A stretch of DNA of 64,000 nt from Candidatus Multivorans sp. (GCA_965224025.1 OZ245033.1:1760001-1824000), one strand, 5' to 3'. Numbered from the stretch's first letter, positions 44,319 to 44,642 are shown. Program-made: numbers and translations. The notes: generated by a model from the letters alone, not told the origin.

Positions 44319-44642
44319 ATGAAGATGCGTATCGCCCTCCTATCCGGACTTCTGACTCTCGCCGCCGGCGCCGCCCTGGCGATTCCGACGACACAGAGCG
44401 TGACGGCGGCCGACCAGGACCAGGACCAGGTCCCTACCGCCTGGGACGAACTCCTCACCCCATCCATCGTCGGCCCCACCCTCGAACCTGACGCCGTGGA
44501 ACTGGCCGTCTACGGCCCTTGCGGGTGCATTCCGATCCCTGGCTGCCCGTTCCCGATTCCTTTCCCGCGGCCATGGCCTCCGGGCGGCCCCATCTTCAAT
44601 CCGTTCCCGGTCCCGGGTCCCTGCGGCCCCTGCCCGTTCTAG
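44319..44642 (+). CDS. Putative peptide precursor 1 (signal peptide + leader + Pro/Cys-rich core)
   Basis: AAAGGA RBS; MKMRIALLSGLLTLAAGAALA signal; acidic spacer; ...VELAVYG then PCGCIPIPGCPFPIPFPRPWPPGGPIFNPFPVPGPCGPCPF. Confidence 0.75.
   Translation: MKMRIALLSGLLTLAAGAALAIPTTQSVTAADQDQDQVPTAWDELLTPSIVGPTLEPDAVELAVYGPCGCIPIPGCPFPIPFPRPWPPGGPIFNPFPVPGPCGPCPF

What the first reader, a model, noticed from the sequence alone, without database searches (positions are those of the whole stretch)
44319..44642. Extreme Pro/Cys core peptide (17 Pro and 5 Cys in 41 aa) with alternating Pro-hydrophobic pattern
Seen: the predicted core PCGCIPIPGCPFPIPFPRPWPPGGPIFNPFPVPGPCGPCPF has a P-X alternation, internal repeats (PFPIP/PFPVP, GPC x3 counting the leader Gly), Cys clusters at both ends and an odd Cys count. 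It does not resemble the other two cores. Inference: a disulfide-tied polyproline scaffold or a disulfide-linked dimer/heterodimer; the internal PPGG could be a second cleavage site. The composition recalls Pro-rich peptides from marine invertebrates, but no link is shown.
Basis: partly seen in the sequence, partly recalled or inferred. Interest (0 to 1): 0.72.

Follow-up and report, generated by a model that had tools for sequence, protein, structure and literature searches.

The report
Secreted proline-rich, cysteine-stapled peptide family
This is a real gene for a small secreted peptide, very rich in proline and aromatic residues and probably held together by disulfide bonds, that always sits beside a leader-cutting protease in a bacteriocin-like gene cluster of one acidobacterial genus; its function is untested.

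Summary
Window 44319-44642 (+) encodes 107 aa, and the last 41 hold 17 Pro and 5 Cys in a non-random P-x-P pattern.

The gene is real:
- Third codon positions carry most differences (89/79/345).
- The word-index search found 25 homologues; the profile search found 17 among 1.84 billion representatives.
- A gene of this type follows a standalone, membrane-anchored C39 peptidase gene in 32 of 32 genomes of one Thermoanaerobaculia genus. None was found in 269 genomes of other genera.

The N-terminus looks like a Sec signal peptide. The locus also holds a TlpA/DsbE-like thioredoxin, variable hydrophobic double-glycine peptides, unknown permeases, an ABC ATPase and a Yip1/YknW-like protein.

- The cores fall into three types (16 A, 9 B1, 7 B2).
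- Only the first Cys is invariant. A C-terminal Cys is present in 29 of 32, and the Cys count is odd in 12 of 32.
- No Gly-Gly site is conserved before the core, and PPGG is not conserved.
- Core types switch at least 11 times on the C39 gene tree.

Best reading: a polymorphic, Sec-exported, disulfide-stapled bacteriocin-like peptide. Its function is inferred, not shown.

The parts
43060..43566 (+). Membrane-anchored thioredoxin-fold protein (TlpA/DsbE-like), CGNC motif
   Evidence: Pfam Redoxin E 3.5e-5, at 24.1 bits just under the 26.6-bit cut-off. Profile of 10 orthologues against PDB: 3hdc at 1e-4 and DsbE-like 3gl3 at 9.4e-4. CGNC is invariant in 10 of 10. One N-terminal hydrophobic segment, residues 6-24.
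43575..44177 (+). Standalone C39 (double-glycine) peptidase with one N-terminal hydrophobic anchor
   Evidence: Pfam PF03412 E 2.4e-31. Profile against PDB: LahT150 (6mpz) at 2.2e-16, then PCAT1 and ComA. Hydrophobic segment at residues 16-34, preceded by an Arg cluster. The segments around the conserved Cys66 and His140 are invariant in 10 orthologues; their catalytic role is recalled. Orthologues above 65% identity were found in 31 of 31 other genomes of the genus.
44319..44381 (+). pep1 signal-peptide-like N-terminus (residues 1-21, ending A-L-A)
   Evidence: Basic n-region, a 17-residue hydrophobic run and an AxA end, read by eye. Hydrophobic segment at 5-23. It is the only helix in the AF2 model, residues 3-20. 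No signal-peptide predictor was available.
44382..44516 (+). pep1 acidic pro-region (residues 22-66) with AWD and ELAVY motifs
   Evidence: W42, E61, L62 and A63 are invariant or nearly so in A1. The region is shortened to about 14 residues in three genomes.
44517..44642 (+). pep1 Pro/aromatic/Cys-rich core (residues 67-107) and stop codon
   Evidence: 17 P and 5 C in 41 aa. P67, C68, G69, C70, P72, P74, P77 and P79 are invariant in A1. Codon-position differences are 89/79/345.
44694..45023 (+). pep2: signal-like N-terminus, double-glycine leader, hydrophobic 4-Cys core
   Evidence: ORF and sequence. An orthologue exists only in L007, at 63% identity. No Pfam or NCBIfam family.
45109..45405 (+). 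pep3: signal-like N-terminus, Gly-Ala leader end, hydrophobic 2-Cys core
   Evidence: ORF and sequence. Orthologues in L007 and G273. No family.
45521..47143 (+). perm1: polytopic membrane protein of no known family, co-occurring with pep2/pep3
   Evidence: About 10 hydrophobic segments. No Pfam or NCBIfam hit. An 82% orthologue exists only in L007, the only other of the 9 loci with both pep2 and pep3.
47199..47448 (+). Conserved non-coding element upstream of perm2
   Evidence: 78-99% identical in 9 loci. RNAalifold gives 63 pairs, 3 of them compensatory. No Rfam match at E <= 1.
47449..48786 (+). perm2: paralogue of perm1, apparently truncated or frameshifted here
   Evidence: 445 aa with an aberrant C-terminus, against 528-549 aa in 8 orthologues.
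48759..49547 (+). ABC ATPase (DrrA/ABC-2 type)
   Evidence: PF00005 E 6.7e-30. TIGR01188 at 1.6e-64, below its cut-off. 90-98% identical across loci.
49520..50323 (+). Yip1 / YknW-like membrane protein
   Evidence: PF04893 E 1.5e-9. NF052650 YknW_fam E 2.3e-19, at 69.7 bits below the 110-bit cut-off. Only 48-60% identical to the orthologues.

Best explanation
pep1 is a genuine small secreted protein of a family restricted, in the genomes searched, to one genus of Thermoanaerobaculia (Acidobacteriota; records titled Candidatus Multivorans).

Shown:
- The gene is under purifying selection.
- It occupies a fixed slot directly after a thioredoxin gene and a standalone C39 peptidase gene in every genome of the genus examined.
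- Its C-terminal 33-46 residues are Pro- and aromatic-rich, with an invariant first Cys and usually a Cys near the C-terminus.
- The core exists in three discrete types that are exchanged between closely related genomes.

Inferred:
- The N-terminal 21 residues are a Sec signal peptide cut after A-L-A.
- In the periplasm, one or more disulfides tie the N-terminal Cys or Cys cluster to the C-terminal Cys. The co-encoded membrane-anchored TlpA/DsbE-like oxidoreductase either helps form them or controls them. The central Gly/Pro stretch would then act as a turn, giving a stiff, protease-resistant hairpin of extended X-Pro strands.
- Because no Gly-Gly type site is conserved before the core, the peptide is probably not a canonical C39 substrate. 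The acidic pro-region may stay on, or may be removed in some other way.
- The neighbours are variable double-glycine hydrophobic peptides, each with a Cys near both ends, plus variable permeases, an ABC ATPase and a YknW-like protein. On that basis pep1 is most likely one polymorphic component of a multi-peptide, bacteriocin-like antagonism system that matures outside the cytoplasm.
For: Real gene:
- Codon-position differences are 89/79/345.
- 25 homologues. 17 profile hits at E <= 0.001 among 1.84 billion representatives.

Fixed slot and narrow range:
- The A1 profile matched 31 of 301 genomes of the class, all in one of 107 genera.
- The one genome without a match and the four with leader-only matches carry diverged pep1-type genes in the same slot. 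Two more were read by hand. Total: 32 of 32.
- Synteny snf2-trx-C39-pep1-variable peptides-perm-abc-yip1 holds in 8 of 9 loci. L004 is cut off before abc and yip1.

Export:
- n-, h- and AxA-type regions by inspection, one hydrophobic segment at 5-23, and the only helix of the AF2 model.
- The C39 and thioredoxin proteins each have a single N-terminal hydrophobic anchor after an Arg cluster. A periplasmic C39 has a published precedent in FapD (PMC5557850, passages read).

Disulfide:
- The first Cys is present in 32 of 32 and a C-terminal Cys in 29 of 32.
- CGNC is invariant in the thioredoxin, whose profile matches DsbE-like structures.
- Thiol oxidoreductase genes occur in the bacteroidetocin loci of Gram-negative bacteria (PMC6671954, passages read).

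Bacteriocin-like context:
- The C39 profile is closest to LahT150, PCAT1 and ComA.
- The neighbouring peptides have GG, GA or GxG leader ends and hydrophobic cores, and they differ between loci.
- perm1 co-occurs with pep2 and pep3.
- YknWXYZ is described as an efflux pump that protects against the SDP peptide toxin (PMC4887032, abstract seen in the listing).

Polymorphism:
- Three core types need at least 11 changes on the C39 gene tree, where the minimum possible is 2.
- The window's core is 83% identical to that of L005 although their C39 proteins are 67% identical, and 68% identical to that of L001 although their C39 proteins are 94% identical.
Against: - No activity, expression or mass-spectrometry data exist, and no RNA run was available.
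- No signal-peptide or topology predictor could be run, so export and the periplasmic location of C39 and thioredoxin rest on inspection and hydropathy.
- The structure prediction gave no confident fold (mean pLDDT 53), so the hairpin is a guess.
- Three of 32 members lack any C-terminal Cys, and 12 of 32 have an odd Cys count. One disulfide scheme therefore cannot fit all.
- A gene present in 32 of 32 species at a fixed chromosomal place is unusual for a bacteriocin. Bacteriocins are typically strain-variable.
- No gene in the locus co-varies with the pep1 core as an immunity partner would. L001 and L003 share 97% Yip1 identity but only 58% pep1 core identity.
- No outer-membrane export component is seen in the locus.
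- TlpA/DsbE-type proteins are usually reductants (established knowledge). The thioredoxin may keep the C39 catalytic Cys reduced rather than act on the peptides.
Confidence: 0.5

Rival explanations
1. pep1 is an ordinary double-glycine-type precursor. After export, the adjacent C39 peptidase removes the whole pro-region at or next to the ELAVY-x-P-C junction, releasing the 41-aa core.
For: - The gene lies directly after the C39 gene in 32 of 32 genomes.
- Type A pro-regions end in an E-L-A-V-Y stretch that resembles the E-L-x-x-hydrophobic part of the neighbouring peptides' leaders.
- pep1-type signal and pro-regions occur fused to GG hydrophobic cores, in L006 8587-8946 and in P0038.
- G69, two residues into the 'core', is invariant in A1.
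- The authors of the FapD paper state that periplasmic C39 enzymes may use other recognition sequences (PMC5557850).
Against: - The two residues before the core are not GG, GA or GS in any type. The last is G, W, S, Y, D or V in type A. Types B1 and B2 have no Gly there.
- Three genomes have only about 14 residues between signal peptide and core and lack the ELAVY motif.
Confidence: 0.2
2. pep1 is not a toxin but an accessory factor of the system. It could be a pseudo-substrate or regulator of the periplasmic C39 peptidase or thioredoxin, or a carrier that keeps the very hydrophobic sister peptides soluble in the periplasm.
For: - It is the only peptide gene with a fixed slot in all 32 genomes, next to the two enzymes, whereas the hydrophobic peptides come and go.
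- In type A a leader-like helix motif is followed by Pro-Cys where the sister peptides have Gly-Gly.
- No immunity-like gene co-varies with it.
Against: - Core types are swapped between close relatives while the C39 protein stays 71-94% identical. That is not expected for a partner of a conserved enzyme.
- Types B1 and B2 lack the leader-like motif.
Confidence: 0.15
3. pep1 is a secreted signalling peptide (a pherotype-like kin signal) that regulates the locus.
For: Discrete core types are distributed patchily among close relatives. This resembles the pherotype polymorphism of Gram-positive peptide pheromones, a comparison made from recall.
Against: - No histidine kinase, response regulator or other receptor-like gene was recognised among the nine locus proteins scanned.
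- The peptide is large and hydrophobic for a pheromone of a bacterium with two membranes.
Confidence: 0.08
4. pep1 and its neighbours are structural surface or matrix peptides, analogous to the Fap amyloid system or to chaplins, and not weapons.
For: - A periplasmic C39 peptidase is a component of the Fap amyloid system (PMC5557850), and NCBIfam FapD matches the C39 protein at 3.4e-13, below its cut-off.
- The sister peptides are hydrophobic and Gly/Ala-rich, with two Cys.
Against: - No outer-membrane channel, nucleator or amyloid-repeat protein lies in the locus.
- The variable peptide cassettes, paired permeases, ABC ATPase and YknW-like protein fit toxin and immunity better.
Confidence: 0.06
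5. The ORF is a chance Pro-rich reading frame of a G+C-rich genome and encodes nothing.
For: 70 of 45,656 six-frame ORFs of at least 60 aa in this genome contain a 41-aa window with at least 17 P.
Against: - Third-position excess of differences, 89/79/345.
- Conserved start, signal peptide and core in 32 genomes.
- It is the only ORF with both at least 17 P and at least 5 C.
Confidence: 0.01

Closest known systems
Class II bacteriocins and class II microcins with double-glycine leaders, processed by C39 peptidase domains; among Gram-negative examples, the bacteroidetocin loci (PMC6671954)
   Same: - A C39 double-glycine peptidase is encoded next to small Cys-containing peptide genes.
- A thiol oxidoreductase and unknown membrane proteins lie in the cluster.
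- The sister peptides pep2 and pep3 have GG or GA leader ends and hydrophobic cores.
   Different: - The peptidase is a standalone protein with one membrane anchor, not the N-terminal domain of an ABC exporter.
- The peptides begin with Sec-type signal peptides.
- pep1 itself has no GG-type site, and its core is Pro/aromatic-rich, unlike any described class. A search for five 'proline-rich bacteriocin/microcin' phrases found 0 papers.
Sec-dependent bacteriocins of Gram-positive bacteria, such as the enterocin P type (recalled)
   Same: A cleavable Sec signal peptide in place of a GG leader; unmodified, disulfide-containing product.
   Different: - pep1 has a further pro-region of 14-45 residues after the signal peptide.
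- It sits in a C39 locus.
- It comes from a bacterium with an outer membrane.
FapD, the periplasmic C39 peptidase of the Pseudomonas Fap amyloid system (PMC5557850)
   Same: A C39 peptidase that carries an export signal and acts outside the cytoplasm on Sec-exported substrates lacking a canonical site. The NCBIfam FapD model matches at 3.4e-13.
   Different: - The score of 49 bits is far below the FapD cut-off of 330.
- There are no Fap partners and no outer-membrane channel.
- The closest solved relatives are bacteriocin-type peptidases.
Bacillus subtilis SDP toxin with the YknWXYZ protection pump (PMC4887032, abstract; SdpC maturation recalled)
   Same: A Sec-exported, disulfide-containing hydrophobic peptide toxin, with a Yip1-family protein and an ABC ATPase in protection.
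   Different: - No sequence similarity between the peptides.
- The permeases here belong to no known family.
- The YknW model matches below its cut-off, 69.7 against 110 bits.
Proline-rich antimicrobial peptides of animals, such as apidaecin, Bac7, penaeidins and indolicidin (recalled)
   Same: High Pro content, X-Pro alternation, and aromatic-Pro motifs.
   Different: - Those peptides are strongly cationic and mostly Cys-free, or have a separate Cys-rich domain.
- pep1 cores have a net charge of -3 to +2 and Cys inside the Pro-rich part.
- No homology was found in any search.

Membership tests
Double-glycine leader peptide (substrate of a C39 peptidase) | The leader ends in Gly-Gly, Gly-Ala or Gly-Ser immediately before the core | tested here: not met
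   The residues before the core are Y-G, Y-W, F-G, Y-S, Y-Y or V-D in type A, and Pro or aromatic residues in B1 and B2. No GG-type pair is conserved in the 32 sequences.
Double-glycine leader peptide (substrate of a C39 peptidase) | Amphipathic leader motif (E-L-x-x-hydrophobic) upstream of the cut | tested here: inconclusive
   E-L-A-V-Y is present in most type A members. It is absent from B1 and B2 and from the 75-aa forms.
Double-glycine leader peptide (substrate of a C39 peptidase) | Encoded beside a C39 peptidase with the active-site Cys and His segments | tested here: met
   PF03412 at 2.4e-31. The Cys66 and His140 segments are invariant in 10 orthologues. The gene is adjacent in 32 of 32 genomes.
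Double-glycine leader peptide (substrate of a C39 peptidase) | Cleavage by the peptidase | not testable with these tools
   This needs an enzyme assay. See Tried and rejected for the complex prediction.
Sec-dependent unmodified bacteriocin | N-terminal Sec signal peptide with an AxA-type cleavage site | tested here: met
   By inspection and hydropathy only, plus the AF2 helix at 3-20. No dedicated predictor was available.
Sec-dependent unmodified bacteriocin | Antibacterial activity of the mature peptide, with a cognate immunity gene | not testable with these tools
   No assay was possible. No gene co-varying with the core was seen.
Proline-rich antimicrobial peptides (PrAMPs) | Strongly cationic Arg/Lys-Pro composition without structural Cys | tested here: not met
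   Net charge is -3 to +2 in the 32 cores, with 2-5 Cys.
RiPP (enzymatically modified peptide, including the Sec-exported bufferins) | A modifying enzyme, such as radical SAM, LanM, YcaO or MNIO, encoded in the cluster | tested here: not met
   None was recognised by Pfam or NCBIfam among the nine locus proteins. The two permease-like proteins have no family, so an unknown enzyme cannot be excluded.
Any curated protein family | A match to Pfam, NCBIfam, a PDB sequence or an ESM Atlas cluster | tested here: not met
   No Pfam or NCBIfam hit. At E <= 10 there were only chance-level matches to the signal peptide. The best PDB E-value was 0.55. The best Atlas score was 0.78.

The most novel reading that the evidence does not exclude
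The locus may be a so far undescribed, extracytoplasmic maturation route for bacteriocin-like peptides in a bacterium with two membranes. The route would run: Sec export, then a membrane-anchored periplasmic C39 peptidase and a TlpA-like oxidoreductase. Within it, pep1 would be a new peptide class: a neutral hairpin of extended X-Pro strands stapled by disulfides. It is kept in every species of the genus but swapped between three allelic core types. It would act either as a new kind of toxin or, more unusually, as an uncleavable Pro-Cys pseudo-substrate that gates the peptidase.
Probability: 0.25. Interest if true: 0.75.

Novelty: new variant of a known kind. Interest (0 to 1): 0.5.

Why it matters
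If the reading holds, three things follow.

- It adds a compositionally new peptide type to the repertoire of unmodified bacterial peptides: neutral, about 40% Pro, aromatic-rich and disulfide-stapled.
- It adds a second, bacteriocin-type example of a C39 leader peptidase working outside the cytoplasm, after FapD.
- It comes from Acidobacteriota, a phylum whose peptide weapons are almost unexplored.

The short, rigid, probably protease-resistant scaffold and its three natural allelic types would be easy to synthesise and compare.

If the peptide turns out to have no activity, the finding remains a well-delimited orphan family that marks one genus.

Tried and rejected
- Structure prediction of pep1 with its 26-row alignment: mean pLDDT 53, with only the signal-peptide helix. 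No fold search was run on it.
- Structure prediction of perm1 with a 10-row alignment: mean pLDDT 46. This is too poor for a fold search, so none was run.
- Complex prediction of the C39 domain with pro-pep1: no verdict, score 0.02 against a mark of 0.32. It counts neither for nor against binding.
- Expression: no RNA holder was listed among public runs.
- Family and structure look-ups for pep1 gave nothing usable.
- Rfam on 42500-51000: only two sub-threshold matches, both upstream of the thioredoxin gene. The promoter and terminator scan was uninformative.
- Search for an immunity partner by co-variation of Yip1, ABC and C39 with the pep1 core in 9 loci. Yip1 tracks C39 (rho 0.74) better than it tracks the pep1 core (rho 0.43). 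The pairs are not independent, so this shows no sign of pairing.
- Literature. Searches for periplasmic or Sec-linked C39 bacteriocin systems returned FapD and general reviews but no description of this architecture. A search for FilB gave nothing useful. The phrase search for proline-rich bacteriocins or microcins found 0 papers. Supplementary files of papers were closed and could hold relevant precursor lists.
- Considered and rejected: a chance ORF; a lipoprotein (no Cys after the signal peptide); PEP-CTERM or CGP-CTERM type sorting signals (no C-terminal membrane helix).

Full report
**The observation**

Window 44319-44642 (+) is an ORF of 107 codons plus stop.
- Its last 41 residues contain 17 Pro, 5 Cys, 6 Gly, 5 Phe and 4 Ile.
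- The alternation is much stronger than composition alone gives. There is 1 Pro-Pro dipeptide against a shuffle mean of 6.64; 19 of 100,000 shuffles were as low. There are 10 P-x-P against a mean of 3.98; 135 of 100,000 were as high.
- Pro-rich frames do arise by chance in this 67.6% G+C genome: 70 of 45,656 six-frame ORFs of at least 60 aa have a 41-aa window with at least 17 P. This is the only one that also has at least 5 Cys.

**It is a real gene**

- A word-index search found 25 homologues of 100-113 aa.
- A profile search of 1.84 billion cluster representatives found 17 at E <= 0.001.
- In a 21-codon block around the first Cys cluster, pairwise differences among the window and nine orthologous loci fall 89, 79 and 345 on codon positions 1, 2 and 3.
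- Homologues start at the same Met, and an AGGA motif lies upstream. The longer ATG at 44232 is therefore not the start.

**Where it occurs**

- Nine loci from named genome records are all Thermoanaerobaculia. Four are titled Candidatus Multivorans.
- In 301 genomes sampled from the class, the profile matched 31, all in one of 107 genera. That is 30 of 31 other genomes of the window's genus and 0 of 269 genomes elsewhere.
- I fetched the one genome without a match and the four with leader-only matches. All five have a diverged gene of the same kind in the same slot. Two more were read by hand.
- So 32 of 32 genomes of the genus, the window's included, carry a pep1-type gene directly after the C39 gene.

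**The neighbourhood**

On one strand the order is as follows.
- A thioredoxin-fold protein. Pfam Redoxin at 3.5e-5 is just under its cut-off. A profile of 10 orthologues matches DsbE-like structures at 1e-4. CGNC is invariant.
- A 200-aa standalone C39 peptidase. PF03412 at 2.4e-31. The closest solved relatives are LahT150, PCAT1 and ComA.
- pep1.
- Two further small genes.
- Two paralogous polytopic membrane proteins of no known family.
- A DrrA-type ABC ATPase.
- A Yip1/YknW-like protein.

The order snf2-trx-C39-pep1-peptides-perm-abc-yip1 is kept in 8 of the 9 loci; L004 is cut off before abc and yip1. Between pep1 and the permease, each locus has one to three different peptide genes. L004, interrupted by a transposase-like ORF, has one, and it looks truncated. 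Most of these genes have a signal-peptide-like N-terminus, a leader ending in GG, GA or GxG, and a hydrophobic Gly/Ala-rich core with one Cys near each end. pep2, pep3 and perm1 occur together only in the window and in L007. That pattern looks like a peptide-plus-permease cassette.

Both enzymes have a single N-terminal hydrophobic segment after an Arg cluster. By the positive-inside rule their domains should face the periplasm. A periplasmic C39 has a precedent in FapD (PMC5557850, passages read). Orthologues of this standalone peptidase (above 65% identity) were found only in the same genus, in 31 of 31 genomes. Elsewhere in the class the matches are 28-40% identical and lie mostly in open frames of about 700-1150 aa, the usual transporter-fused form. 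A second, diverged copy in the window's genome is followed by another signal-plus-GG peptide.

**What comparison says about pep1**

The 32 sequences share three things: the signal-peptide-like N-terminus, a P-C dipeptide that opens the core, and a hydrophobic, mostly aromatic C-terminal residue.

The cores fall into three types.
- Type A (16 genomes, the window included): a C-G-C ... C cluster followed by X-Pro repeats.
- Type B1 (9 genomes): two Cys about 30 residues apart and strong X-Pro alternation.
- Type B2 (7 genomes): two Cys and only 26-30% Pro.

Core Cys counts are 2 in 16 genomes, 3 in 4, 4 in 4 and 5 in 8. A Cys in the last dozen residues is present in 29 of 32. Net charge runs from -3 to +2.

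The residue before P-C is G, W, S, Y, D or V in type A and is never part of a GG-type pair. Types B1 and B2 have no Gly there. Three B1 genes encode only 75 aa, with about 14 residues between signal peptide and core. The internal PPGG is not conserved.

They also make the odd Cys number a peculiarity of half of type A. They do fit the 'disulfide-tied' idea in a looser form: an N-terminal Cys or Cys cluster linked to a C-terminal Cys. That is the same end-to-end Cys arrangement as in the hydrophobic sister peptides.

**Polymorphism**

On a quick maximum-likelihood tree of the adjacent C39 gene (32 rows, SH-aLRT support only), the three core types need at least 11 changes, where the minimum possible is 2. 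Several well-supported small clades mix types. The window's core is 83% identical to that of L005 although their C39 proteins are 67% identical. It is 68% identical to that of L001 although their C39 proteins are 94% identical. Signal peptides follow the species clade while cores do not. pep1-type leaders also occur fused to GG hydrophobic cores, in L006 8587-8946 and in P0038. The slot is fixed, but its content is exchanged by recombination.

**Mechanism**

Shown: the gene, its conservation, its slot, its types and its neighbours.

Inferred:
- Sec export and a cut after A-L-A.
- Disulfide formation or control by the TlpA/DsbE-like protein.
- A stiff hairpin of extended X-Pro strands, with the central Gly/Pro stretch as a turn.
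- A role as one component of a multi-peptide bacteriocin-like system.

The ABC ATPase, permeases and YknW-like protein would serve immunity or export. The comparison here is YknWXYZ, which protects against the SDP toxin (PMC4887032, abstract in the listing). Thiol oxidoreductase genes also occur in bacteroidetocin loci (PMC6671954, passages read).

Weak points:
- There are no expression or activity data.
- Structure prediction failed (pLDDT 53).
- The gene is universal in the genus, which is unlike most bacteriocins.
- No immunity partner co-varies with the core.
- No outer-membrane component is present.
- TlpA-type proteins are usually reductants, so the thioredoxin may serve the peptidase's catalytic Cys instead.

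The rivals are a true C39 substrate with an unusual site, an accessory or pseudo-substrate factor, a signal peptide pheromone, and a structural peptide.

**Comparison and novelty**

The system works like a class II bacteriocin or microcin locus, and its enzymes are members of known families. pep1 fails the defining test of a double-glycine precursor, belongs to no curated family, and is unlike animal Pro-rich antimicrobial peptides in charge and Cys content.

I saw the same architecture here independently but did not test its wider range. Other notes on this genome call it an acidobacterial symbiont, which I did not check.

I rate the finding a new variant of a known kind, of moderate interest. 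The peptide is real and compositionally unusual, and the extracytoplasmic maturation route is uncommon. The function remains an inference.

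Noticed in passing
window 47199-47448 (+); partial second copy near window 50527-50571: A non-coding stretch of about 250 nt directly upstream of perm2 is 78-99% identical in nine loci, more conserved than the flanking permease genes. A partial copy lies after yip1, so the two bracket the perm2-abc-yip1 module. RNAalifold predicts 63 pairs, 3 of them with compensatory changes. There is no Rfam match. It may be a structured leader RNA or a recombination or cassette boundary.
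   Followed up: partly
window 47449-48786 (+): perm2 is 445 aa here with an aberrant, charged C-terminal part, against 528-549 aa in eight orthologues. It is probably frameshifted or partly deleted, while perm1 is intact. L009 also has a shortened copy of 304 aa.
   Followed up: partly
G000:C1:3369934-3370440 and about 400 nt downstream: A second standalone, anchored C39 paralogue (54% identity) is followed by a 100-aa ORF with a signal-like N-terminus, a GG-type leader end and two Cys, and then by transposase remnants. Ten genomes of the genus, the window's included, show such second copies.
   Followed up: partly
L006 8587-8946; protein P0038: These are hybrid precursors: a pep1-type signal peptide and pro-region joined to a GG leader end and a hydrophobic two-Cys core. 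Leaders and cores are therefore shuffled between peptide classes in this locus.
   Followed up: partly
L005 4596-4781; L006 8351-8524: Short classical double-glycine precursors of 57-61 aa, without a signal peptide, lie in the same loci as the signal-peptide-bearing ones. This raises the question of how both kinds could reach one peptidase.
   Followed up: no
L004 8531-9916: A 461-aa transposase-like ORF is inserted between pep1 and the following peptide genes. The next peptide gene there looks truncated.
   Followed up: no
window 49520-50323 and orthologues: The Yip1/YknW-like protein is only 48-60% identical between the window and all eight loci that hold it. This includes L001, whose ABC ATPase is 98% and whose C39 is 94% identical. 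L001, L002 and L003 share 97% Yip1 identity. The gene looks as if it has been replaced by recombination.
   Followed up: partly
window about 58522-60192 (-): A further permease-like paralogue lies on the minus strand, with tblastn matches of perm1 and perm2 at window about 59692-60042. It sits next to an ORF at 57896-58630 that was not examined.
   Followed up: no
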